From positions 1 to 17,431 of IMG/VR virus record IMGVR_UViG_2541047898_000005: a stretch of DNA of 17,431 nt; one strand, 5' to 3'. The notes under the pieces are model-generated. The model had not been told where the DNA came from. It ran no database searches and worked only from the letters and a program-made list of their open reading frames with translations. The position numbers were made by a program, and so were the translations under genes. This document shows positions 1,970 to 17,082 of this stretch, one piece after another (within the stretch, counting starts at the first letter, position 1; each line of letters starts with the position of its first letter). Source of the DNA: a virus. Lineage: Duplodnaviria > Heunggongvirae > Uroviricota > Caudoviricetes.

Positions 1970-2118
1970 CGGCTGAATACCTCACTGATCGCTTCTTTGA
2001 CTGCGCCAGCTACTGGCGCATTAATCCCTTCGAATTGCTGAATATGCCGATCAGTGAAATTCCCTTGCTGGTCAGTCAGGCAAACAGGATAGAGCAGGAG
2101 AAACGCACACATGGCTGA
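1700..2118 (+). CDS. Tail assembly chaperone frameshift fusion (lambda GT-like), made by -1 slippage at 1951-1957
   Basis: ORF 1936-2118 is in the -1 frame relative to 1700-1969 and overlaps it across the X_XXY_YYZ heptamer T_TTT_TTC. The fused reading would be ...LVAGFF then PPGLTAEY... The extension ends 7 nt into the tape-measure gene. Confidence 0.5.
1951..1957 (+). other. Slippery heptamer TTTTTTC for programmed -1 ribosomal frameshift
   Basis: Zero-frame codons GGT TTT TTC; after a -1 slip the next codon is CCT (1957-1959), which continues ORF 1936-2118. Confidence 0.5.
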
Positions 2119-4063
2119 ATTTGAGCTTAAGGCGTTGATCACCGGTGTCGACAGGCTTTCTCCCGCGCTGTCGAAAATGCAAAAGAAAATCCGGGGATTT
2201 AAACGCCAGGCGGAAGAAGCGTCACAGGGTGGGCTGGCGCTTGGTGGCGGACTGGCAGCGGGGCTGACGCTTTCCCTGAAATCTTATGCCGATCAGGAAA
2301 ACGCCGCTACCGGGCTGAAAGTCGCCATGATGGATGCGAACGGCGAGGTTGGAAAGAGCTTTCAGGACATCAATAAACTGGCTATTGGCCTGGGTAACCA
2401 GCTACCCGGTACAACGGCTGATTTCCAGAACATGATGCAGATGCTGGTGCGTCAGGGGATCCCGGCAGAAAACATTCTGGGTGGTGTGGGTAAAGCGACA
2501 GCTTATCTTGCGGTACAACTGAAAAAAACACCGGAAGCGGCTGCCGAGTTTGCCGCAAAGATGCAGGATGCTACCGGAACGGCCTCAGAAGACATGATGG
2601 GGCTGTTCGACACAATTCAGAAGGCGTTTTATCTGGGCGTTGACGACACCAACATGCTGTCATTCTTCACTAAAACCAGCTCTGTTCTGAAGATGGTGAA
2701 TAAGGACGGTCTTCAGGCTGCACAGAGTCTTGCCCCCATCAGTGTCATGATGGATCAGATGGGGATGAACGGGGAGTCGGCAGGTAATGCCCTGCGAAAA
2801 GTTATCCAGTCCGGATTAAGCGTTAAGAAAATCAGGGACGTCAATAAAATCATGGCCCGCCAGAAACTCGGAGTACAGCTCGATTTTACTGATGGCAAAG
2901 GGAGTTTTGGTGGTCTTGATAACATGTTCAGGCAACTGGCAAAGCTGCGAAAACTGACCGACGTTAAGCGAACCGGTGTACTTAAGGCAATATTTGGTGA
3001 TGATGCCGAAACCCTTCAGGTGGTCAATGCGCTGATCGATAAAGGAAAGGATGGCTACGATCAGATCCAGCAGAAGATGAATAAACAGGCCAGCCTGAAT
3101 AAACGTGTTCAGGCTCAGCTTGGTACGCTGTCCAACCTGTGGGAGGCAATGACGGGGACCGCAACTAACGGCCTTGCGGCTATTGGCGGCGCATTTTCTG
3201 GTGACGCTAAGAACATCACGCAGTGGCTGGGGGAGTTGGGGGAGAAATTCACGAAGTTTGCGGATGAAAATCCCCGGGTTATTCGCGGCGTCGTCGGGCT
3301 TGCTGCCGGTCTTGCGATTCTGAAACTGGGATTGATGGGCGTGGGCAGTGCCATCAGCATTGTCAGCAGGATCATGTCGATGACGCCGATTGGCATGATT
3401 GCGACGGCGATAGCCCTGGCTGCGGGATTAATTATCACCAACTGGGATGTTGTCGGACCTTATTTCAAGAAGCTCTGGGAAACCATTAGTCCTTATTTTG
3501 AGGCTGGCTGGGAACTCCTTAAGAAAGTTTTTGCCTGGTCGCCGCTGGGGATGGTGATCAATAACTGGGGGCCGGTTGTTAAGTGGTTTCAGGATATGTG
3601 GGACAAGCTGAAGCCAATTATTGAGTGGTTTACCGACAGTTCCGGTGACACGGTCGATGCCATTAACTCTGCGCAGTGGGGCGCGGGTGCTTATGATGCT
3701 TATGGGACGGGAATACCGCCACGGGGATACACTCCTTATCCGGCGCAGTCAAACAACGCCTCCGGTGACACGGTCGATGCCATTAACTCGGCGCAGTGGG
3801 GCGCGGGTGCTTATGATGCTTATGGGACGGGAATACCGGCGCGGGGATACACACCTTATCCGGCGGTAGATCCGGCTCAGTCAAACAACGCCTCCGATGC
3901 CACAGGCTCGAATCCCTTCATGATTAATAAAGCTACCGCGCCAAAAGTTGATGGTGAGATCAAGGTATCATTTATAAATATGCCACCAGGTATGCGGGTT
4001 ACGGAAACACGCTCCAGTGGCATTGATATAAATCACGATGTTGGCTATACCCGATTTTGGTAG
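2111..4063 (+). CDS. Tail tape measure protein
   Basis: 650-aa ORF directly after the frameshifted chaperone pair; Ala/Gly-rich helical N-terminal part, hydrophobic central stretch (GVVGLAAGLAILKLGLMGVGSAISIV...), CAGGAG Shine-Dalgarno before the ATG. Confidence 0.8.
   Translation: MAEFELKALITGVDRLSPALSKMQKKIRGFKRQAEEASQGGLALGGGLAAGLTLSLKSYADQENAATGLKVAMMDANGEVGKSFQDINKLAIGLGNQLPGTTADFQNMMQMLVRQGIPAENILGGVGKATAYLAVQLKKTPEAAAEFAAKMQDATGTASEDMMGLFDTIQKAFYLGVDDTNMLSFFTKTSSVLKMVNKDGLQAAQSLAPISVMMDQMGMNGESAGNALRKVIQSGLSVKKIRDVNKIMARQKLGVQLDFTDGKGSFGGLDNMFRQLAKLRKLTDVKRTGVLKAIFGDDAETLQVVNALIDKGKDGYDQIQQKMNKQASLNKRVQAQLGTLSNLWEAMTGTATNGLAAIGGAFSGDAKNITQWLGELGEKFTKFADENPRVIRGVVGLAAGLAILKLGLMGVGSAISIVSRIMSMTPIGMIATAIALAAGLIITNWDVVGPYFKKLWETISPYFEAGWELLKKVFAWSPLGMVINNWGPVVKWFQDMWDKLKPIIEWFTDSSGDTVDAINSAQWGAGAYDAYGTGIPPRGYTPYPAQSNNASGDTVDAINSAQWGAGAYDAYGTGIPARGYTPYPAVDPAQSNNASDATGSNPFMINKATAPKVDGEIKVSFINMPPGMRVTETRSSGIDINHDVGYTRFW
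3641..3892 (+). repeat. In-frame tandem duplication inside the tape-measure gene (unit 1 = 120 bp at 3641-3760; unit 2 = 132 bp at 3761-3892 with a 12-bp insertion)
   Basis: Near-identical DNA copies encode SGDTVDAINSAQWGAGAYDAYGTGIP(P/A)RGYTPYPA...QSNNA twice; read directly from the sequence. Confidence 0.9.
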
Positions 4064-4091
4064 CCAGGATTCCCCTCACATGTATTGCTGG

Positions 4092-4119
4092 TTGTAAGTC
4101 ATAAATAGAGTGATAGAAT
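4092..4119 (+). promoter_or_regulatory. Putative sigma70 promoter for the moron gene (-35 TTGTAA 4092-4097, 16-nt spacer, -10 TAGAAT 4114-4119)
   Basis: Hexamer match and spacing, about 35 nt upstream of the ATG at 4155; no experimental support. Confidence 0.3.
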
Positions 4120-4154
4120 TAATGCACATTTAGAAAAATGTTAATAGGCGAAAA

Positions 4155-4685
4155 ATGAAAGGCTATATCACAGCAAGTGTAATTCTTGGAGCAGCGGCTA
4201 TTTTTTCATCTCTCATAATCTCTGGCAACATCTCCTTTAAAGATGAACATATTATTCAGTTATCTGGAGGAGCCATAAAACTTGGTGATGTTTATAAAGA
4301 AAATAAATTGATAAGTGCAAAGATTATTTTTCCAGATAATCAGGGCGAACAGATTCTTGTTGTCGACGGCAATCCTGAAAACTTTAAGGAGGATTTTCAG
4401 GAGAAATTAAATAAAGTAATAAAAACTTTAAATGCGTCAAAGAAAAAAGATGAAGAGAAAGTTAGCCTGGATAATTTAAGTGTTATTGAAGAGTCTAAAC
4501 TAGAGCTCGTTTCTGCGGTGCGTTACTCTGCTCAGTATGTTCCTATGTTTACTCTGACGCTGGACAAAAAAGAAATTACCATGCCTAAAAATACGGTAAT
4601 ATTTCCATTTGCCAGCGATGAAACAGCTAAGTATTTAAATGAACAACAGCAAAAGTATAAAGATTCGTTGTTTCTGACTCGCTAA
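4155..4685 (+). CDS. Hypothetical secreted or membrane-anchored protein (moron inserted in the tail module)
   Basis: 176-aa ORF, visibly AT-rich and Lys-rich compared with the flanking tail genes. N-terminal hydrophobic segment (ITASVILGAAAIFSSLIISG) suggests a signal peptide or TM anchor; there is no Cys, so not a lipoprotein. Flanked by its own candidate promoter and a rho-independent terminator. Confidence 0.6.
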   Translation: MKGYITASVILGAAAIFSSLIISGNISFKDEHIIQLSGGAIKLGDVYKENKLISAKIIFPDNQGEQILVVDGNPENFKEDFQEKLNKVIKTLNASKKKDEEKVSLDNLSVIEESKLELVSAVRYSAQYVPMFTLTLDKKEITMPKNTVIFPFASDETAKYLNEQQQKYKDSLFLTR

Positions 4686-4702
4686 TTAATAAAATTCATT
4701 AC

Positions 4703-4736
4703 AAGGCCACCTTCTAATAGGTGGCTTTTTTATTTT
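4703..4736 (+). terminator. Rho-independent terminator after the moron gene
   Basis: Stem GCCACC (4706-4711) pairs with GGTGGC (4720-4725) around an 8-nt loop, followed by TTTTTTATTTT (4726-4736). Confidence 0.6.
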
Positions 4737-4746
4737 CGGAGTGTAT

Positions 4747-6117
4747 ATGACGTGGAAAGACAGGCTTCAGGATGCGTCATTTCGAGGTGTGCCGTTTAAG
4801 GTTGAAGAAGAAAGTGCGGGAACCGGCCGTCGTGTGGAAACACACGAATATCCGAACCGCGACAAACCCTATACCGAAGATCTGGGAAAAGTCACTTTCC
4901 GCCCGTCCATCACGGCTTATGTGGTGGGAGATGACTGCTTTGACCAGCGCGATCGCCTGATTGACGCGCTGAATAAACCCGGTCCCGGCACGCTTGTCCA
5001 TCCGACTTACGGTGAGCTGAAAGTCTGTGTTGACGGGGAAGTTCGGGTCAGCACATCGAAGAGTGAAGGGCGTATTGTCCGCTTTGACCTGAAGTTTGTC
5101 GAAGCGGGAGAACTCTCTTATCCCACTTCAGGTGCGGCGACGGCGCAGACGCTGATGTCATCCTGTTCTGCACTGGATGACTGCATCAGTGACAGCTTCA
5201 GTGGTTTCAGTATCGATGGCGTGGCGGATTTTGTGCAGAACGACGTCGTCGGTAATGCCGGCACAATGCTGGGGTATGTTTCTGATGCGATGAAAGTGGT
5301 GGATTCTGCCGTATCGGATGCCGCCAGGCTGTTGCAGGGGGATATCTCGGTACTTCTGCCGCCGCCATCGTCAGGCAAAAATTTCGTTGAGCAGGTGCAG
5401 AAAATGTGGCGTACCGGGAAACGCCTTTATGGTAACGCCAGCGACCTGGTCACCATGATCAAAACGCTTTCCGGTGTCAGCCTCGGCAGCGATCTGCAAC
5501 CGCGCGGCGTCTGGAAAACGGACAGTAAAACCACCGCCACGGCGACGCAGCAGCGTAACGTGGTTGCCAGCACCCTTCGTGCGACCGCAATCAGCGAAGC
5601 GGCGTATGCCGTCACCCGATTGCCTGCGCCAACAACTTCCGCGGTGATGCAGAATGCCGCAGTGGGGCAGTCAACAACTTCCGCGGTGATGCAGAATGCC
5701 GCAGTGGGGCAGGCAACAACACCCGCGCAGAGCACTGGCTGGCCTTCCGTCACGCATCCGGCACTGAACAATGCTCCGGCGGTGAAAAGCACGGTTGACC
5801 TGCCGACGTGGGAAGAACTGACTGACATTCGCGACACACTGAATACGGCAACTGATAAGGAGTTGTCCCGTACAACCAGTGATGCGCTGTTTCTGGCGCT
5901 GCGCCGGGTGAAAGCAGATCTGAATGCGGATATCAACACGCGCCTTGAACAGTCTGCACGGATCATTCAGCGCACGCCGGATGAGGTTTTACCCGCGCTG
6001 GTGCTGGCGGCGACCTGGTTTGATAACGCGGCGCGTGACGCGGACATTATCCGGCGTAATGCCATTACGCATCCCGGCTTTGTGCCGGTGATCCCTCTGA
6101 AGGTGCCAGTGCAATGA
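4747..6117 (+). CDS. DNA circulation protein (Mu gpN / gp43-like)
   Basis: Position after the tape-measure gene in Mu order; N-terminus MTWKDRLQDASFRGVPF... matches my memory of the Mu N family. ATG at 4747 has a GGAG Shine-Dalgarno; the track's GTG at 4741 is less likely. Confidence 0.65.
   Translation: MTWKDRLQDASFRGVPFKVEEESAGTGRRVETHEYPNRDKPYTEDLGKVTFRPSITAYVVGDDCFDQRDRLIDALNKPGPGTLVHPTYGELKVCVDGEVRVSTSKSEGRIVRFDLKFVEAGELSYPTSGAATAQTLMSSCSALDDCISDSFSGFSIDGVADFVQNDVVGNAGTMLGYVSDAMKVVDSAVSDAARLLQGDISVLLPPPSSGKNFVEQVQKMWRTGKRLYGNASDLVTMIKTLSGVSLGSDLQPRGVWKTDSKTTATATQQRNVVASTLRATAISEAAYAVTRLPAPTTSAVMQNAAVGQSTTSAVMQNAAVGQATTPAQSTGWPSVTHPALNNAPAVKSTVDLPTWEELTDIRDTLNTATDKELSRTTSDALFLALRRVKADLNADINTRLEQSARIIQRTPDEVLPALVLAATWFDNAARDADIIRRNAITHPGFVPVIPLKVPVQ
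5632..5715 (+). repeat. 42-bp in-frame tandem duplication (2 units) inside the DNA-circulation gene
   Basis: acaacttccgcggtgatgcagaatgccgcagtggggcag(t/g)ca twice, encoding TTSAVMQNAAVGQ(S/A) twice. Confidence 0.9.
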
Positions 6118-9789: not shown

Positions 9790-10293
9790 ATGCATCGTAT
9801 AGACACGAAAACCGCGCAGAAGGATAAGTTCGGCGCGGGTAAGAACGGTTTTACCCGTGGTAACCCCCAGACCGGCACGCCTGCCACCGATCTGGATGAT
9901 GACTACTTTGACATGTTGCAGGAGGAGCTTTGCAGCGTTGTGGAGGCATCCGGTGCCAGCCTGGAGAAGGGGCGGCACGACCAGTTGCTTACCGCGCTTC
10001 GTGCGCTGCTGTTAAGCCGCAAGAATCCGTTTGGCGATATCAAATCGGATGGCACGGTGAAAACGGCTCTCGAAAACCTTGGTTTGGGAGAAGCGGCTAA
10101 ACGAAATGTGGGAGCACCTGATCATCGGATTCCAGACATATCTGCATCAGGCTCTGGCAAATACAACTGTGAGGTATCTTGTGCTCAAAATGACCCAGAG
10201 TTGTCAAAGGATTTTCCTGGGAAGGAATCAACTGAATCAAGAGGTAATTTTATTATTGGATGTGATGACGGCGCAGGGGTTGATACAGGCTGA
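9790..10293 (+). CDS. Tail fibre protein: constant N-terminal part (9790-10096) fused to the currently expressed variable C-terminal cassette (10097-10293)
   Basis: ORF runs across the left inverted repeat into the invertible segment. The post-repeat C-terminus resembles the minus-strand cassette at the other end (GEAAKR...SGKYN...ESRG(N/K)F). Confidence 0.6.
10079..10096. repeat. Left inverted repeat / putative recombination crossover site of the invertible segment (ttggtttgggagaagcgg)
   Basis: Perfect 18-bp inverted repeat with 11911-11928, lying inside the tail-fibre ORF and next to a Gin/Pin-family invertase gene. Confidence 0.85.
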
Positions 10294-10997
10294 TGTTCAG
10301 TGGGTACTCAAGCCGCAGCGCCGGCCTAGAAACTTATTCCGTTTGTGGCAACCAAGGGATAAGAATCAATAGAAGTATCAGACCGGGCGGCTATGTATAG
10401 AAGAGTAAATATGGAAATAGGAGGATTTTATGCATCAGCAGACTTAGGGCGCCTGGGCCAATCACTGACACGTTATTAATTAAGAAAACACTTTAATACT
10501 GGCTGGAACGAGGCCTGTTGATGCATTAGTTCATCTAGCTGAAATGTGAGTGATATATATGGGAGAACGCCGAATAGGAAAGAGCCCAGATTGCTAGGAA
10601 GATGGTTAACATAACTGGCTATAAATACCTCGGTGATACGAGGGAGAATTTATTTACAAGGACTGATCAGATAGCAATGGGTGTCGGAACTCGACCAAAT
10701 TCCTCTTTAACCGTAAATAGTAGCCCGGTGACTGGGTTAATGATTTGCCGATAGGTGAGGAACAGGCCCTGTATATATTTTGCCTACAATAGCGGTGGGA
10801 ACGTGTGCAGGATGATAATGGCGGGGGCCAAGAAAATGACTGCCCTAGGCGACTGGCCGTAAAGGCCAACTGCCGTCCGCCGGGGAGCTCGTAACTGTAA
10901 CTGGCATCGCGTAAAAGTGATCACGGACAGTGTTAAGTATGATTGTGCCGGAGTAGGTCCGGCTGAGTCCCGGCTGCAGTCACTGTTTAATCCGGCT

Positions 10998-11009
10998 GAG
11001 GGTACCCTC
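10998..11009. repeat. Perfect 12-bp palindrome gagggtaccctc at the exact centre of the invertible segment
   Basis: Symmetry axis falls between 11003 and 11004, which equals (10079+11928)/2. Confidence 0.9.
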
Positions 11010-11644
11010 TGTTTCATCCAACTGAGATTGGAGCTCTGCTTTAAACGCTCCTACGCCGGAACCGTCTTATTTCTCAGTGTCTTGCACCAAATTTACGCCG
11101 TCACAGTAACAGAATCCCGTTAACCGCCGGATAGCGGTTGTACTGAACGGCCAGTGGCGTAGGCCTTTCATTACTTTGCCATCCCGCGGTTTGAAGCTAC
11201 ACACGTGCCTACCGAGATGGTCTCACAAAATTTCATTGCATTTGAACCCCACAGAACAGCCGACTATAAGAGGCGCCATCGGTCTACTGTTAGCGTCTAA
11301 AGAGTTAGATGCCCGGATACCTACATACTCGCCTAGATGATTCGTTGATGTAGATATATATTCCCTCTGATCGTGGACGTATTTATAGACAGGTGGGTAC
11401 CCCGCTTTCCTATTAAACTCGTCTTTTCTCTATACGGCGTTATCCAATATATTGTACAGAAAATACATTTAGATGCACTATTTCATGGGCGGGTCACGCT
11501 CCATTCACTACATCAGATTTTCTCACATTAACGGAGTGAAGGTCATTTGATGAGAGTCACTAAGGAAGTGGATTCATCAAGCCTCCTTCCTTGGGTATAC
11601 GTAGTTCTAAACATACCAGTTCGTGCCGATTCTTCTTTTGTGTC

Positions 11645-11928
11645 TTACGTATCTTTTGTGATAACCGCCTTACGGTGCTTGGCCGGCGCACCGGCTAGTG
11701 TACTCTCTGAAAATCGTCCTCTATCAATAACTGCCCCGGCAGCCAAGGCAAGAGGAAACTTACCGCGAGATTCGTGAGATTTCGCTCTTTGATCATCCTT
11801 CGCAAACTTCGGGTATATATCACCACTAAGTAACTGAAAGTTGTATTTGCCAGATCGAAATGGAGATATAGCTGAAATCTGTTGATCAGGTATTCCAACA
11901 GTTCGTTTTGCCGCTTCTCCCAAACCAA
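11645..11928 (-). CDS. Alternative tail-fibre variable C-terminal cassette (promoterless; would fuse to the constant part after inversion)
   Basis: Minus-strand frame open from the right inverted repeat to a stop at 11645, encoding GEAAKRTVGIPDQQISAISPFRSGKYNF...ESRGKF..., parallel to the plus-strand cassette. Confidence 0.45.
11911..11928. repeat. Right inverted repeat / putative recombination crossover site (reverse complement of 10079-10096)
   Basis: ccgcttctcccaaaccaa is the exact reverse complement of ttggtttgggagaagcgg. Confidence 0.85.
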
Positions 11929-11994
11929 CGTTTATGAAAATGAAGAAATAACAAGCAAATGGCATCATTCCTGCTTTTACCAGGGGGATTTAAC

Positions 11995-12549
11995 ATGCTT
12001 ATTGGCTATGTACGTGTATCAACAAATGACCAGAATACCGATCTACAACGTAATGCGCTGAACTGTGCAGGATGTGAGCTGATTTTTGAAGACAAGATAA
12101 GCGGTACAAAGTCCGACAGACCAGGACTGAAAAAGCTGCTCAGGACATTATCGGCAGGTGACACGCTGGTGGTCTGGAAACTGGACCGACTGGGGCGCAG
12201 TATGCGGCATCTTGTCGTGCTGGTGGAGGAGTTGCGCGAACGAGGCATCAACTTTCGTAGTCTGACGGATTCAATTGATACCAGTACCCCAATGGGGCGC
12301 TTTTTCTTTCATGTGATGGGTGCCCTGGCTGAAATGGAGCGTGAACTGATTGTTGAACGAACAAAAGCTGGACTGGAAGCTGCTCGCGCACAGGGACGAA
12401 TTGGTGGACGTCGCCCCAAACTTACACCAGAACAATGGGAGCAGGCCGGACGATTAATTGCAGCAGGAATTCCTCGCCAGAAGGTAGCGATCATCTATGA
12501 TGTTGGTGTATCGACACTGTATAAGATGTTTCCGGTCGGAGATAAATGA
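11995..12549 (+). CDS. pin: Site-specific DNA invertase, serine recombinase of the Gin/Hin/Pin/Cin family
   Basis: 184-aa product beginning MLIGYVRVSTNDQNTDLQRNAL... with the catalytic Ser in the YVRVST motif, ...VVWKLDRLGRSM..., and a C-terminal HTH-like region (GIPRQKVAIIYDVGVSTLYK). It matches the Gin/PinE sequences I remember closely. GGGGGA Shine-Dalgarno 6 nt upstream. The track's upstream Met (11959) is probably not the start. Confidence 0.9.
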   Translation: MLIGYVRVSTNDQNTDLQRNALNCAGCELIFEDKISGTKSDRPGLKKLLRTLSAGDTLVVWKLDRLGRSMRHLVVLVEELRERGINFRSLTDSIDTSTPMGRFFFHVMGALAEMERELIVERTKAGLEAARAQGRIGGRRPKLTPEQWEQAGRLIAAGIPRQKVAIIYDVGVSTLYKMFPVGDK

Positions 12550-12881: not shown

Positions 12882-14180
12882 ATGAAAGCTCGTTTAATAC
12901 CACCGTACGAAAACTACACTGGCAATGTTTTATGGCGAAAAGAGGATTTTATTAATAAAGTCGACGATATCTCAACATCTCTAAAAAAGTTAAGAGATAT
13001 GGGATATTGGGCCAGTGCCTATCCTGAAGGAGATGGCATTACATTTAAATATACCAAGGATAGTTATCAAAAAAGCAGTATCGAAATTCTAGAAGACTTC
13101 TCAATATGCTTTGAGTGGGTAGAAATAGAGTTAGCTAAATCAAGAAGCTCTAACCTAGAATTAGCTGAATTAGAGGGTAAAAACAAAAATATGGAGTGCA
13201 TAGTTATTGTGCCGATTGAGAAGATTTTCATTCAGGAAACCATCGAGATCGGAAAGTATATTTTTTATTGCGGAAGACAATTTGATGAAGAGTCACATAA
13301 GCGATTATCAGAGCAAGATGGTTCGTATATACAGTTTAACTGTGACCTACCATATATTGATTTATTAAAACTTAATTCAAGCATTGATCATAACAGCCAT
13401 GTTATAAACATGTGTTTATCTATAGCTGAATATGCGCTTGATTTAGTCAGATTTTCTCACAGCTCATTTACACGTATGGAATATACCCCTAATCCTGCAG
13501 GTCAACGCTCTGACGGATTTTATGATGTAGAAATCATTCCTCGTGAGAGGACTCATCTTAAACCAATTAAGATAAGTGGAATATCAAGACCCCTTGCTGT
13601 GAGTAATAATTGGCTAGGCCCTCAGGTTGACAGCTTGTATTACCCTGGGTTGCAATATTTATCTTCTATCTACGATGGAGTCGTTGAAAATGAACTTTCA
13701 AAATTAGTTAGCTCCGTAGTTAGGGCATGTAGGCAATCTTTTTATTCAATTGGCGCGGAATCACAATTTCTAAACCTAGTCTTTGCACTTGATGGTCTTG
13801 CTAATATTGACCCAAATTGGAAAGGATGGAAGCAAAGGACCTACATTGCAGCACTTACATGTAATAACTCACTAATCAAATTTAAGAAAAACCTAGAAGT
13901 TTATGACGAGTTATATACTGACGTAAGAAACAAGCTTGTTCATGATGGTAAAGATTTTTACGAACTTAACGTCAACGCGAACGAATCCTCTGAACAAATC
14001 TTTAAGTATATTAAGATAATTATAATACTCATCGAAAGTAACGGCTTTTCCACTTTGCAAGAATTGAGAGATTATGCAGTTCACCTACTTCAGCAGGAGG
14101 ATTATAGAACTGCTTCTGTTGAGATAATTGACAAAGTATCTCTTTTAAGAGGAAAAAAACCTAATTATCCTTCATGGTGA
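12882..14180 (+). CDS. Hypothetical cargo protein with a C-terminal HEPN-like R-x4-H motif (candidate abortive-infection RNase)
   Basis: 432-aa AT-rich ORF with a strong Shine-Dalgarno. Motif DVRNKLVHDG fits the HEPN R-[NQ]-x3-H signature, about 90 residues from the C-terminus in a predicted helical region. Family assignment is inference. Confidence 0.45.
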   Translation: MKARLIPPYENYTGNVLWRKEDFINKVDDISTSLKKLRDMGYWASAYPEGDGITFKYTKDSYQKSSIEILEDFSICFEWVEIELAKSRSSNLELAELEGKNKNMECIVIVPIEKIFIQETIEIGKYIFYCGRQFDEESHKRLSEQDGSYIQFNCDLPYIDLLKLNSSIDHNSHVINMCLSIAEYALDLVRFSHSSFTRMEYTPNPAGQRSDGFYDVEIIPRERTHLKPIKISGISRPLAVSNNWLGPQVDSLYYPGLQYLSSIYDGVVENELSKLVSSVVRACRQSFYSIGAESQFLNLVFALDGLANIDPNWKGWKQRTYIAALTCNNSLIKFKKNLEVYDELYTDVRNKLVHDGKDFYELNVNANESSEQIFKYIKIIIILIESNGFSTLQELRDYAVHLLQQEDYRTASVEIIDKVSLLRGKKPNYPSW

Positions 14181-14256
14181 TTAAATCAACGTGCTAATTA
14201 ATTTTTAATATAACTTCTGCTCCTCGCTCTCAGCGGACCTTCAGCTCAGTGATATC

Positions 14257-14281
14257 GTCCGCTCTGTGTCAGGAGCGGACG
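14257..14281. repeat. Junction motif copy B, forming a hairpin (stem GTCCGCTC/GAGCGGAC, loop tgtgtcag) between convergent cargo genes
   Basis: 8-bp perfect stem read from the sequence; no U-tract, so not a canonical intrinsic terminator. Left half matches copy C, right half matches copy A. Confidence 0.5.
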
Positions 14282-14373
14282 TTACTGACATCACAATGTG
14301 TTAATCAATGGAGAGCAGGTCACCATAATGTCATGGGTATCGCTGGTGATATGATCGCAATACACGACAATTA

Positions 14374-15063
14374 TTATTTAATTATTTTAAAAAGTTCATT
14401 GTAGCTACAACCTTTGAATATTTCGAACTGATCATGGTAATTTGAATAAGCGCTTGCCATCATTCCGATATAACTATCCCATGATGACTCAGAAACTACC
14501 ATTTCACCACGCTCTAATTCATCAATTAAAATATAAATGATATTAAATTGTGCAACAAGAGCAGTGTAGGTGGTGATGAGATTATTTAGAAGGTCTGAAT
14601 GATTAGGTTTGATTTTCCACAAACCAAAACTATCCCGAATTGCAACTAATTCGAATCGTAAATCTTTTGACTCAGAAAGTAACTCCCTCCCACTTGTAGT
14701 GAGATGCTTGTAGAGTATGGGGTTCTCACTTTTTATTCTTGGCTGTATAGAAATAAGTGATTGATAACATTGATGATTTAAGTCCTTTGATCGAAACATG
14801 CTGTCGATGAACAATGTAGTTCTCTCGAAAGCCTTTTCTGATTTTTTGTTTTTAATCCATTCATTTACCCTTGTTAATGCATAAATCGCTAGTCCAAGTG
14901 TTATTGTTGAAACTGTTGCAGTAATTGTTGATGGTTCAATTTTTTTAAAAAACCAGATATCAATCCATGCAAAAGAGACTGAGCCGAGATACATAAACAA
15001 CATGTGACTCGCGAAGTATTCCCAAACACCTTTTAAATAGCTTTTCATGTAGATCCTTAACAT
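14374..15063 (-). CDS. Hypothetical membrane protein (two N-terminal TM helices plus a ~150-aa cytoplasmic domain); real start probably the internal Met at 15048
   Basis: AT-rich ORF. Hydrophobic segments MLFMYLGSVSFAWIDIWFF and ITATVSTITLGLAIYAL. The ATG whose reverse complement is at 15046-15048 has an AAGGA Shine-Dalgarno 5 nt upstream, whereas the first ATG has none. Confidence 0.5.
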   Translation of the reverse strand: MLRIYMKSYLKGVWEYFASHMLFMYLGSVSFAWIDIWFFKKIEPSTITATVSTITLGLAIYALTRVNEWIKNKKSEKAFERTTLFIDSMFRSKDLNHQCYQSLISIQPRIKSENPILYKHLTTSGRELLSESKDLRFELVAIRDSFGLWKIKPNHSDLLNNLITTYTALVAQFNIIYILIDELERGEMVVSESSWDSYIGMMASAYSNYHDQFEIFKGCSYNELFKIIK

Positions 15064-15217
15064 TTTCTTAATTATATTTTATGGTGGTATTTTTGTTAGT
15101 ATCGGTATGGATTAGAAATAGTTGATACTTTTATGCCCTGAGAGCATGAAAACTGGAAAAGCCTTGCTCATGATATAAATAGTGTTAGTTGCCACTGCTT
15201 TGGAAGTTATCCTTTAA

Positions 15218-15412
15218 ATGGGCTATCGGAAAGCCAGACTTCTAGCAGATGCTGAATCCGTGATTTTGCCGCTGGAGCGCGCTGTCAGGCTGAATATGGC
15301 AACAGATGAGGAGCGCAGTCGACTGGAGGCATGGGAACGCTACAGCGTTCTGGTCAGTCGTGTGGATCCTGCAAATCCTGAATGGCCGGAAATGCCGCAA
15401 GAAGTTGTATGA
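15218..15412 (+). CDS. Hypothetical small protein (64 aa; Glu/Arg-rich, predicted helical)
   Basis: ORF with normal (non-AT-rich) composition inside the 640-bp spacer between two cargo genes; no recognisable motif. May be a gene fragment. Confidence 0.25.
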
Positions 15413-15438
15413 GCTCTGGTGTGAGCTTACATATCTAT

Positions 15439-15478
15439 GGCACAGAGTAAAGCCTAATCTGACAGTCCGCTCTGTGCC
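15439..15478. repeat. Junction motif copy C within a 9-bp-stem hairpin (ggcacagag ... ctctgtgcc, 22-nt loop)
   Basis: Contains gtccgctctgtgcc, which shares 12 contiguous nt with copy B; lies between the membrane-protein gene and the RES-like gene. Confidence 0.5.
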
Positions 15479-15702
15479 GAAGCTAGCAAAGCCATGGTCC
15501 TTTCGCAGCAAGTTGCGTAAATAAGGCGTTTTTATCTCTTGAAGCATTCTACAAAGCCAACTCCTCGCTCAAACAGACGTGTCTGTTCAGCAATCTGCCC
15601 GCTTGGTATCAAGGGACGCCAGTAACGCGATACCGGGTGAATTCCTTCCTTAACTGCCCTCACATCATCTTTAATAATAGTTTACCCTGATATAACGGAT
15701 GA

Positions 15703-17082
15703 TCAGAAGTCAATCAGGTCATCGAATTTCTGAGGTGGCTCTTGTTTTCGAACGCTATCTCCCTGATGAATCTCCGTCTCACTTGTTTGGTATTTTACAC
15801 CAGTAATTTTATGATAAGTCATACTGTTGGTTTTCAACAGTAGTGCATCATTTTTGTCATGCGAGGATGAAAATGAACCCATATGTCTCGGTTTTATTTG
15901 TTCCTCAACTATCAACTGAATTTCCGGAACAAAAGCATACTGGTCATCTTCGATGTGTTCATACATCTCAACATTATATCGGCGAGATTTATCTGCGGCA
16001 TGCCTGACGCCGGAAGACTTATTAAACAGAACGACATTATATCCTGTCTCAGCATCCTCACCGTTGGCATCTACCTGGGTAGATTTAAAGCTGACACCAT
16101 CAAGCTTAAATTTATTTCGGTCACCTAGGTAATCGGCAACCACTTGGGTGATGAGGTAATCACTGTCCTGCCTTTTTCCAAAAGTAGGAAGCGTCAACTT
16201 ACGGGAAAGCGTACTGAAAAAAATCGCGCGCTCACTGGTTTTGCGAGTCTGAGGATCAAATTTACTACCTGAGCCGAAACTAATCGAGTCAAGGGCAGAA
16301 ATGTCCAGCACTTTTAGCTCGCGTAACGGTACAAAACAGGCCGTTACTACAATACTGCCGACGGGCGGCCTTACTTCAGCAATTGCCAAATTCACTGAGG
16401 TTGCACCGTAAAATACTGAAATCCCCTGTGCGTTCATACGGCCCGAGCGAGCCAAAGTTGTTGGGGGAGGTCCAAAATTTTTCTCGGGATGCTCCAAGGC
16501 TTGCTTTACTTCCTCTTGGTCCTCAAAAACCCTTGCACGAAAAAGATGAACCTCATCAGTCAGAGTTTTTATCGGTGAATTACTGTCTCTGTTTTTTAGT
16601 TTATCGATATCACTGAAAAGTGAATCTAGGAAATCATTAACTTCACGGTTAAAATATCGTGTTTCTTTCATAAGGGAGTCAGTGGCTTTACTCCAGGTAT
16701 GCGCAAGCTCTCCGCTATAGTGATTTATGTGCCGATAAAGAAACCCGTCATTATACCGGATGTAGTCATAATCGTTATGCGGATTATATTCATCACAAAG
16801 AAATTCATAAATATCTTCAGCTACGTCCCATTCGACGCCCAGTTCTCCGTAGATGACATCCTGCGCGCTATCACCGCGCCCGGAATCATAGATATCCTCA
16901 TATATATCATAGTAGTACTCAAAAACCTCATTCATCATCTTGAGAATATATTTGAGGTGGATGTTTTTACGCTTCCTTTTGCAGTAAGAGCAAATCTGAA
17001 AATTATTTCCAGTTTTTATTATATGCTGCATGACATATTTATCGTTCACGCATTTATGACAAATATACTTATCTTCCCACAT
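15703..17082 (-). CDS. RES-domain-like protein with an N-terminal Cys4 zinc-ribbon-like motif (candidate NAD+-targeting effector)
   Basis: 459-aa AT-rich ORF. N-terminus has CHKC...CSYC. Central segment LFRARV...(~25 aa)...ARSGRMNAQGISVFYGATSVNLAIAEV...(later) VSFKS...YNVVLF fits my memory of the RES (Arg-Glu-Ser) core, G-R-x-N...G...Y.A......A..E. No HMM search run. Confidence 0.55.
   Translation of the reverse strand: MWEDKYICHKCVNDKYVMQHIIKTGNNFQICSYCKRKRKNIHLKYILKMMNEVFEYYYDIYEDIYDSGRGDSAQDVIYGELGVEWDVAEDIYEFLCDEYNPHNDYDYIRYNDGFLYRHINHYSGELAHTWSKATDSLMKETRYFNREVNDFLDSLFSDIDKLKNRDSNSPIKTLTDEVHLFRARVFEDQEEVKQALEHPEKNFGPPPTTLARSGRMNAQGISVFYGATSVNLAIAEVRPPVGSIVVTACFVPLRELKVLDISALDSISFGSGSKFDPQTRKTSERAIFFSTLSRKLTLPTFGKRQDSDYLITQVVADYLGDRNKFKLDGVSFKSTQVDANGEDAETGYNVVLFNKSSGVRHAADKSRRYNVEMYEHIEDDQYAFVPEIQLIVEEQIKPRHMGSFSSSHDKNDALLLKTNSMTYHKITGVKYQTSETEIHQGDSVRKQEPPQKFDDLIDF

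What the first reader, a model, noticed from the sequence alone, without database searches (positions are those of the whole stretch)
4064..4740. AT-rich moron with its own promoter and terminator inserted between the tape-measure and DNA-circulation genes
The tail genes on either side are tightly packed and mostly translationally coupled. This 176-aa gene is compositionally foreign, preceded by ~90 nt of non-coding DNA with a plausible sigma70 promoter, and followed by a clean intrinsic terminator (6-bp GC stem plus T-run). The product has an N-terminal signal or anchor sequence and is Lys-rich. Morons in this kind of position often encode lysogenic-conversion or superinfection-exclusion functions expressed from the prophage.
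Basis: partly seen in the sequence, partly recalled or inferred. Interest (0 to 1): 0.6.

Follow-up and report, generated by a model that had tools for sequence, protein, structure and literature searches.

The report
Prophage tail-operon moron, exported protein
This is a real extra "cargo" gene sitting in a swap-in/swap-out slot between two tail genes of an SfV-like E. coli prophage; it encodes a membrane-anchored periplasmic protein of an uncharacterised family whose best-guess job is to protect the lysogen against other phages, so it is a good but fairly ordinary example of a known kind of element.

Summary
ORF 4155-4685 (176 aa) is 34% GC against 52-57% in the flanking tape-measure and DNA-circulation genes. 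A 91-nt spacer precedes it. A strong hairpin plus T-run follows it (-15.6 kcal/mol, z -5.8).

- Flanks 95-97% identical occur in 1,096 of 5,426 complete E. coli genomes; only 179 carry this cassette.
- Phages SfV, SfI and SfII and strain UTI89 have an empty junction.
- Other relatives carry one of three unrelated AT-rich cargos there. All three also encode exported or anchored proteins.
- The cassette is 99.1-100% identical across 67 prophages whose flanks differ by 0-4%. pN/pS is about 0.2.

Caveats:
- The promoter is only a consensus match.
- A hairpin plus T-run sits at this junction even when it is empty.
- Homologues (41-55% identity, also AT-rich) hold the same slot in Leclercia/Lelliottia and Edwardsiella prophages, so the family is an old resident of the slot.

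The protein has one N-terminal helix (N-in, C-out) and an alpha/beta domain (pLDDT 84). It has no Pfam, NCBIfam, PADLOC or PDB relative; it belongs to phrog_5485, function unknown.

Function is inferred only. Superinfection exclusion is most likely (about 0.35-0.4).

The parts
2111..4063 (+). Tail tape-measure gene, the left boundary of the slot. RefSeq starts the equivalent gene at window 2231. It contains a 120-nt tandem duplication at 3641-3865.
   Evidence: PF10145 1.4e-26; RefSeq annotation; TRF. The last few codons differ between junction states.
4064..4154 (+). 91-nt non-coding leader of the cassette. It holds a promoter-like site: -35 TTGTAA 4092-4097, 16-nt spacer, TG 4111-4112, -10 TAGAAT 4114-4119. 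A weak SD (AGG) lies at 4146-4148.
   Evidence: Consensus scan and sequence. Not above chance by count and not conserved in homologues. Function as a promoter is inferred, not shown.
4155..4685 (+). Cargo CDS of 176 aa: bitopic or secreted envelope protein, member of phrog_5485, function unknown.
   Evidence: ORF. phrog_5485 3.8e-108. No Pfam, NCBIfam or PADLOC hit. pN/pS about 0.2 over 74 intact copies. AF2 model of residues 25-176 has pLDDT 84.
4167..4223 (+). Codons 5-23: the single N-terminal hydrophobic helix, either a signal anchor or an uncleaved-looking Sec signal. Predicted N-in/C-out.
   Evidence: Mean KD 2.1, N-side net charge +2, C-side -1. The same layout holds in 54 of 57 family members and no second hydrophobic segment exists.
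4703..4737 (+). Intrinsic-terminator-like hairpin (4703-4728) plus T-run, 18 nt after the stop codon.
   Evidence: -15.6 kcal/mol, z -5.8. Equivalent hairpins with different stem sequences occur in all homologous and alternative co-directional cassettes and in the empty junction.
4738..6117 (+). SD GGAG (4738-4741) and the DNA-circulation (Mu gp43/N-like) gene starting at ATG 4747; the right boundary of the slot.
   Evidence: PF07157 3e-34; RefSeq start. Homology between all junction states resumes at the T-run/RBS.

Best explanation
The 4064-4740 stretch is a moron-type cargo cassette. It occupies a polymorphic slot between the tape-measure and DNA-circulation genes of an SfV-like E. coli prophage (HK97-type head, Mu-type contractile tail).

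Anatomy, shown directly: an AT-rich leader, one 176-aa gene, and a strong hairpin plus T-run.

Product, predicted: a protein held in the inner membrane by one N-terminal helix, or released by signal peptidase. Its roughly 150-residue alpha/beta domain lies in the periplasm.

How it most likely works, inferred:
1. In the lysogen the gene is transcribed from its own weak sigma-70 promoter and stops at its terminator. The surrounding late genes therefore stay silent.
2. After induction, Q-modified RNA polymerase reads through the hairpin, so tail-gene expression is not disturbed.
3. The periplasmic domain acts as a binding protein rather than an enzyme. No catalytic-type residues are conserved; the only invariant or near-invariant residues are G39, L43, G44, E49, Y124 and L134.
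4. It interferes with an envelope step of infection by incoming phages, most plausibly tail-tip penetration or genome delivery. That would be superinfection exclusion, functionally like HK97 gp15 or T4 Sp.

Sub-confidences: accessory cargo cassette about 0.9; periplasm-facing envelope protein about 0.8; superinfection exclusion as the function about 0.35-0.4.
For: Accessory status:
- The flanks occur in 1,096 of 5,426 E. coli genomes and the cassette in 179.
- The junction is empty in UTI89, SfV, SfI and SfII.
- Three unrelated cargos sit at the same junction. One is a minus-strand TM + tRNA_anti-like OB-fold protein (79 genomes). One is a lipobox protein (55 genomes). One is the Sec-signal protein of isolated phage SKA5 (85 genomes).
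- All four cargos are AT-rich, 0.31-0.42 GC against about 0.50-0.52 for their loci.
- All four carry N-terminal export signals.

Mobility and selection:
- The cassette is 99.1-100% identical in 67 IMG/VR prophages (median 99.6%). Their flanks are 95.9-100% identical (median about 97.3%).
- There are 13 synonymous and 10 non-synonymous polymorphic sites, over about 111 and 417 sites respectively.

Topology.

Terminator. An antiterminator Q gene is present in the same prophage.

Not structural: remote homologues (about 23% identity) lie in Pseudomonas integrative islands. Their neighbours are resolvase, an Mrr-type nuclease, a DUF5906 protein and an integrase, not tail genes.

Precedent: HK97 gp15 is a moron next to the tape-measure gene. 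It encodes an inner-membrane protein that blocks genome entry (PMC3594210).

Fold: the only significant viral structural match is an annotated phage lipoprotein (Foldseek E 2.3e-6, TM 0.60-0.63).
Against: - No experiment or annotation links this family to any function. There is no PADLOC, Pfam or NCBIfam hit.
- The family is not homologous to HK97 gp15 (hhalign probability 0.2%).
- Promoter evidence is weak and not conserved. Expression in the lysogen is therefore unproven.
- The gene is co-directional with the late operon, so it would also be made late in lytic growth. That is equally compatible with a lytic-cycle role.
- Synteny across three genera could mean it serves the phage itself.
- None of the 50,697 deposited phage genomes carries it.
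Confidence: 0.45

Rival explanations
1. Lysogenic-conversion factor unrelated to phage exclusion. The prophage-expressed envelope protein changes host physiology or host interaction, for example serum resistance, adhesion, envelope-stress tolerance or colicin/toxin protection, as lambda Bor and Lom do.
For: The anatomy is that of classic late-operon morons encoding envelope proteins (PMC3594210). The product is predicted to be periplasmic or membrane-located. The gene is under purifying selection. It is present in strains from humans, livestock and the environment.
Against: No similarity to any known virulence or envelope family. No enrichment in any host or pathotype is apparent in the listed hits. 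Homologues occur in environmental Leclercia, Edwardsiella and marine Pseudomonas elements, which argues against a host-animal-specific role.
Confidence: 0.25
2. Lytic-cycle accessory protein serving the phage itself. It would be made from the late operon and exported. Possible roles are preventing progeny from injecting into already-infected cells or debris, modulating lysis, or assisting periplasmic steps of its own infection cycle. It would be dispensable but advantageous.
For: The gene is co-directional with and embedded in the late tail operon. Homologues are kept in the same slot next to the tape-measure gene in three genera, with divergence that roughly tracks the flanks. The promoter is unproven.
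Against: One alternative cargo in the same slot is on the opposite strand and cannot be late-transcribed. Remote homologues lie in non-phage islands. The terminator and 91-nt spacer separate the gene from translationally coupled neighbours.
Confidence: 0.15
3. Ancestral structural or assembly component of this tail type that has been lost in some lineages.
For: The syntenic position is shared in Escherichia, Leclercia/Lelliottia and Edwardsiella prophages.
Against: It is absent from the viable phages SfV, SfI and SfII and from most E. coli prophages with near-identical tail genes. It is replaced by unrelated genes in others. An export signal and persistently low GC are atypical of virion proteins. 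There is no translational coupling.
Confidence: 0.03

Closest known systems
HK97 gene 15 moron (gp15, YebO-related superinfection-exclusion protein)
   Same: A single-gene cassette inside a tail operon, directly adjacent to the tape-measure gene. It is followed by its own terminator and is absent from close relatives. The product is inserted in the inner membrane, and expression from the prophage blocks genome entry (PMC3594210; HK97 annotation).
   Different: gp15 lies upstream of the tape-measure gene (between the chaperone and H), not downstream. It is 62 aa rather than 176 aa. There is no sequence relationship (hhalign probability 0.2%). HK97 has a non-contractile tail. Function has been shown for gp15 and not for this gene.
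phrog_5485 (PHROGs v4, unknown function)
   Same: Full-length match, 1-176 of 176, E 3.8e-108. This is the family to which the gene belongs.
   Different: The family carries no functional annotation, so membership explains nothing about mechanism.
T4 Sp (spackle) and Imm
   Same: By my own knowledge and PMC11436027: small membrane or periplasmic proteins that stop genome delivery by contractile-tailed phages after adsorption. Sp has an N-terminal export signal and a periplasmic domain, which is the architecture predicted here.
Lambda bor / lom, classic late-region morons
   Same: AT-rich independent units embedded in the late region. They are expressed from the prophage and encode envelope proteins (PMC3594210).
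   Different: Bor is an outer-membrane lipoprotein and Lom an outer-membrane beta-barrel. Both have host-interaction roles, and neither is homologous to this gene.
'Lipoprotein' A0A2H4P829 of Pseudomonas phage ventosus (BFVD model)
   Same: The only significant fold-level match: Foldseek E 2.3e-6, probability 1.00, TM 0.60/0.63 over 150 columns. It is of similar size (144 aa), phage-encoded and envelope-anchored.
   Different: 12% identity. It has a lipid anchor rather than a TM helix. Its function is unknown and its genomic context was not examined.

Membership tests
Moron (Juhala/Hendrix definition, as summarised in PMC3594210) | Extra DNA between genes that are adjacent in closely related phages | tested here: met
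   The junction is empty in UTI89, SfV, SfI and SfII, whose flanks are 95-97% identical. The cassette is in 179 of the 1,096 E. coli genomes that have the flanks.
Moron (Juhala/Hendrix definition, as summarised in PMC3594210) | Nucleotide composition different from surrounding genes | tested here: met
   GC 0.34 against 0.52 and 0.57; GC3 0.31 against 0.57 and 0.61. Homologues in other genera are also 0.35-0.39.
Moron (Juhala/Hendrix definition, as summarised in PMC3594210) | Own transcription terminator | tested here: met
   Hairpin plus T-run at 4703-4737, -15.6 kcal/mol, z -5.8. Caveat: the empty junction also has a hairpin plus T-run.
Moron (Juhala/Hendrix definition, as summarised in PMC3594210) | Own promoter | tested here: inconclusive
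   One 9/12 match with an extended -10 at 4092-4119. The count is no higher than in shuffles. There is no conserved promoter in homologues or in the other cargos. The minus-strand OB-fold cargo must have its own promoter, yet the scan does not find one, so the scan is insensitive.
Moron (Juhala/Hendrix definition, as summarised in PMC3594210) | Expression from the repressed prophage | not testable with these tools
   Needs RNA-seq or 5'-RACE on uninduced lysogens.
HK97 gp15 / YebO family | Sequence homology to gp15/YebO | tested here: not met
   hhalign of the family profile A2 against HK97 gp15 gives probability 0.2%. No Pfam hit of any kind.
Superinfection-exclusion proteins (functional class) | Located in the cell envelope of the lysogen | tested here: met
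   Prediction only: a single N-terminal hydrophobic helix with N-in/C-out charge bias, conserved in 54 of 57 family members.
Superinfection-exclusion proteins (functional class) | Blocks infection by other phages independently of repressor immunity | not testable with these tools
   Needs plating-efficiency, adsorption and DNA-entry assays.
Known anti-phage defence systems (PADLOC-DB v2) | Match to a model of a known or candidate defence protein | tested here: not met
   0 families at E <= 0.01.
Structural tail protein of Mu/SfV-type tails | Present in all functional members of the tail module | tested here: not met
   Absent from SfV, SfI and SfII and from most E. coli prophages carrying the same tail genes. 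Replaced by unrelated genes in others.

The most novel reading that the evidence does not exclude
The tape-measure/DNA-circulation junction of SfV/Mu-type tail operons may be a dedicated cargo hotspot. It rotates among at least four unrelated families of exported proteins. The 176-aa family found here has about 77 clusters at 50% identity, is spread from enterobacterial prophages to Pseudomonas islands, and has no Pfam entry and no solved relative. It could be a new class of periplasmic superinfection-exclusion proteins that act against tail penetration or genome delivery. It may be kept next to the tape-measure gene because its specificity is tied to that protein.
Probability: 0.3. Interest if true: 0.6.

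Novelty: new member of a known kind. Interest (0 to 1): 0.35.

Why it matters
Morons are the main route by which prophages change their hosts, yet most moron proteins have no known function. This cassette is the commonest cargo at a well-defined slot. It is in about 3% of complete E. coli genomes, is under purifying selection, and has natural controls: empty and alternative-cargo alleles on near-identical backgrounds. That makes it a tractable candidate for discovering a new envelope-level phage-exclusion or conversion function.

If the slot as a whole proves to be an exclusion hotspot, it would extend the 'defence hotspot' idea from P2/P4-type elements to the middle of a tail operon. It would also be relevant to predicting phage-therapy host range in E. 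coli and Shigella. As it stands it is a well-supported but unsurprising example of a known phenomenon.

Tried and rejected
- Family scans: Pfam, NCBIfam and PADLOC gave nothing for the protein. Pfam on all 57 family members gave only scattered noise.
- PDB sequence search with the family profile gave nothing below E 0.6.
- The afdb50 fold library was unavailable.
- tblastn against 50,697 phage genomes found no match for the window protein and only noise for a Pseudomonas homologue.
- Viral-contig scans with three mid-distance homologues found nothing.
- The genome-contig scan with A1 found one species representative only, Edwardsiella anguillarum.
- Promoter conservation: upstream spacers of homologues do not align. 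The consensus scan finds a suitably placed site only in the window and in L006.
- Insertion mechanism: no direct or inverted repeats bracket the cassette, so there is no transposon-type signature.
- Rfam: no RNA family anywhere in the window.
- I first recalled that HK97 gene 15 lies downstream of the tape-measure gene. The annotation shows it is upstream, and this is corrected in the report.
- The primary gp15 paper (PMC3430355) is not held, so the commentary PMC3594210 was used instead.
- 'Plasmid' records carrying the cassette show the same tail context plus IS26. They were not taken as evidence of an active phage.
- A literature search for the RefSeq protein accession found nothing.

Full report
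**1. What is there**

The window is the late region and right end of an E. coli prophage. It matches NZ_CP080080 at 99.4-99.9% identity. The prophage has an HK97-type head module, a lambda-type lysis cassette, a Q antiterminator and a Mu/SfV-type contractile tail.

The flagged stretch lies between two genes. On the left is the tape-measure gene (2111-4063, PF10145). On the right is the DNA-circulation gene (PF07157). Its start is most likely ATG 4747 behind SD GGAG 4738-4741, not the GTG at 4741.

- ORF 4155-4685 encodes 176 aa. Nothing of 50 aa or more is on the opposite strand.
- GC is 0.345 (GC3 0.305), against 0.523 and 0.569 for the neighbours.
- The 91-nt leader contains TTGTAA-16-TAGAAT preceded by TG.
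- Eighteen nt after the stop codon there is a 10-bp hairpin plus T-run, -15.6 kcal/mol, z -5.8.

Only the terminator is individually better than chance. The promoter-like site is one of 3 in 1.6 kb where shuffles give 2.7.

**2. Is it an insertion?**

I joined 600 nt of each flank, leaving the cassette out, and searched 5,426 complete E. coli genomes. 1,096 genomes have the junction, mostly at 95-97% identity. Only 179 have the cassette.

The junction exists in at least five states:

| State | Example | Genomes |
|---|---|---|
| Empty: 60 nt holding only a hairpin plus T-run and the RBS | UTI89; phages SfV, SfI, SfII (SfII authors annotate a terminator there) | not counted directly |
| This 176-aa gene | the window | 179 |
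| 148-aa TM + tRNA_anti-like OB-fold protein, opposite strand | EH09-18-41 | 79 |
| 225-aa protein with lipobox-like LLGGC | BY63 | 55 |
| 170-aa protein with a classical Sec signal | isolated phage SKA5 | 85 |

All four cargos are AT-rich, 0.31-0.42 GC. All four carry N-terminal export or anchor signals.

Homology between states ends at the last codons of the tape-measure gene. It resumes at the T-run/RBS of the DNA-circulation gene. No repeats bracket the cassette. Exchange by recombination in the conserved flanks is therefore more likely than transposition; this is inference.

In 67 IMG/VR prophage contigs the cassette always abuts both flanks. There it is 99.1-100% identical (median 99.6%), while the flanks are 95.9-100% identical (median about 97.3%). 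The cassette is thus younger than, or moves between, the diverged tail modules.

Among 74 intact copies there are 13 synonymous and 10 non-synonymous polymorphic sites, over about 111 and 417 sites. That gives pN/pS of about 0.2, so it is a functional gene.

**3. Wider family**

Homologues at 53-55% identity (Leclercia, Lelliottia, metagenomes) and at 41% identity (Edwardsiella anguillarum) sit in exactly the same slot of related tail modules. They too are 0.35-0.39 GC and each is followed by a hairpin plus T-run.

Their divergence roughly tracks that of the neighbours but runs faster:

| Pair | Moron | DNA-circulation | gpP-like |
|---|---|---|---|
| Closest pair | 85% | 93% | 98% |
| Other pairs | 41-64% | 64-69% | 81-86% |

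The family is therefore an old occupant of the slot, not a one-off insertion.

An exhaustive profile search found 77 representatives at the 50%-identity cluster level. Nearly all are 170-180 aa and share the N-terminal helix, a juxtamembrane motif G-x-V-[KR]-L-G-x-[VI]-Y-x-E, and a Y-x-S-E-x-x-P-x-F-x-L strand.

The remote members I could place (about 23% identity, marine Pseudomonas) are not in tail operons. They lie in small integrative islands beside a resolvase, an Mrr-type nuclease, a DUF5906 protein and an integrase. They follow another exported protein.

This argues against a structural tail role. It fits an accessory gene carried by mobile elements.

**4. The protein**

It has one hydrophobic segment, residues 5-23 (KD 2.1). 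Net charge is +2 on the N-side and -1 on the C-side. This layout holds in 54 of 57 family members, and there is no second hydrophobic segment. There is no lipobox. The window protein has no Cys, and most family members have none or one.

The C-terminal roughly 150 residues are therefore predicted to be periplasmic. Whether the signal is cleaved (possible sites after S23 or G24) cannot be decided here.

AlphaFold2 on residues 25-176 with 16 sequences gives pLDDT 84 and pTM 0.77. The model is a beta-hairpin plus a four-stranded antiparallel sheet packed against two long helices.

- Foldseek against BFVD gives one real match, an annotated lipoprotein of Pseudomonas phage ventosus (E 2.3e-6, TM about 0.6, 12% identity).
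- There are no Pfam, NCBIfam, PADLOC or PDB-sequence matches.
- The protein is a full-length member of phrog_5485, function unknown.
- Conserved residues are Gly, Leu, Glu and Tyr. This suggests a binding scaffold rather than an enzyme; this is inference.

**5. How it most likely works**

*Shown:*
- it is a dispensable, mobile, selected, compositionally foreign single-gene cassette with a strong terminator;
- its product is predicted to be envelope-located;
- every alternative occupant of the slot is also exported.

*Established knowledge:*
- Morons in late operons are tolerated because Q-modified polymerase ignores intrinsic terminators.
- They are typically expressed from the repressed prophage (PMC3594210).
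- The prototype, HK97 gene 15, lies next to the tape-measure gene. It encodes an inner-membrane protein that blocks genome entry in a tail-dependent way.

*Inferred:* the 176-aa protein acts in the periplasm of the lysogen to block penetration or genome delivery by incoming phages. I put this at about 0.35-0.4.

*Rivals:*
- another lysogenic-conversion role at the envelope (0.25);
- a dispensable lytic-cycle role for the phage itself, favoured by co-orientation with the late operon, synteny across genera and the unproven promoter (0.15);
- a structural role (0.03 or less).

**6.

1. The promoter is only a consensus match. Homologues' leaders do not align, and the scan finds a suitably placed site in only one of them. 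It finds none in front of the other cargos, including the minus-strand one that must have a promoter, so the scan is uninformative either way.
2. The hairpin plus T-run is present at the junction in all co-directional states, including the empty one. The stem sequences differ but pairing is preserved. The terminator is thus a conserved feature of the junction, or a remnant left by cargo loss, and not a specific mark of this insertion.
3. 'Lys-rich' is a codon-bias effect. The mature domain has net charge -2.

**7. Comparison and verdict**

The cassette meets three of the five defining features of a moron. One is inconclusive (promoter) and one is untestable here (prophage expression). It is analogous to, but not homologous with, HK97 gp15 (hhalign probability 0.2%). 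It lies on the other side of the tape-measure gene.

It is a new member of a known kind. The modestly new aspects are the multi-allelic slot for exported-protein cargo in SfV-type tail operons and an uncharacterised family of about 175 aa with no solved relative. Interest: 0.35.

Noticed in passing
window 3641-3865: A 120-nt tandem duplication (1.9 copies, 96% match) lies inside the tape-measure gene. It makes the window's tape-measure protein 40 aa longer than in the otherwise 99.8%-identical genome NZ_CP080080. This could lengthen the tail slightly.
   Followed up: partly
window 4703-4746; L010 2000-2043; L012 2697-2740; L019 1455-1530; L002 8538-8582; L101 1625-1667: A hairpin plus T-run directly upstream of the DNA-circulation RBS is kept in every co-directional junction state, including the empty one. 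The stem sequences differ but pairing is preserved. A terminator in mid-tail-operon therefore seems to be selected in its own right.
   Followed up: partly
L011 2013-2459 (-), L012 2008-2685 (+), L019 926-1438 (+): Three unrelated AT-rich cargo genes occupy the same junction in other E. coli prophages or phages: a TM + tRNA_anti-like OB-fold protein, a lipobox protein and a Sec-signal protein. All are exported or anchored. They occur in 79, 55 and 85 genomes respectively.
   Followed up: partly
window 10093-11895: The tail-fibre C-terminal and fibre-assembly region next to the Pin-type invertase gene (11959-12549) has no blastn match to the closest genome, which is otherwise 99.4-99.9% identical. 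This looks like mosaic replacement of host-range genes.
   Followed up: no
window 12882-17082: There is an AT-rich (0.32-0.40 GC) cargo block at the prophage right end. It holds a 432-aa protein with no family (12882-14180, +), a 229-aa protein with no family (14374-15063, -), and a 459-aa RES-domain protein with a HEPN/RES N-terminal domain (15703-17082, -). RefSeq annotates the last as a RES family NAD+ phosphorylase. None matches PADLOC. The block is a possible toxin or defence module.
   Followed up: partly
L013 6401-7534; L017 5935-7531: Remote homologues (about 23% identity) in marine Pseudomonas lie in small integrative islands, next to a resolvase, an Mrr-type nuclease, DUF5906 and an integrase. 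In L013 the homologue is preceded by another 180-aa protein with a Sec signal that is not a paralogue.
   Followed up: partly
L002 10013-11808 (also L003-L005, L009): Leclercia-type relatives carry two extra genes (about 503 aa and 94 aa, no Pfam) between the DNA-circulation and gpP-like baseplate genes. The E. coli module lacks them. This may be a second variable slot in the same tail operon.
   Followed up: no
L102 (CP088862.1, 35.4 kb 'plasmid'): A circular record labelled as a plasmid holds the late region of this prophage type. It includes the cassette in the same context, plus IS26, but has no integrase or repressor region. It may be an IS26-mediated circle or an assembly artefact.
   Followed up: no
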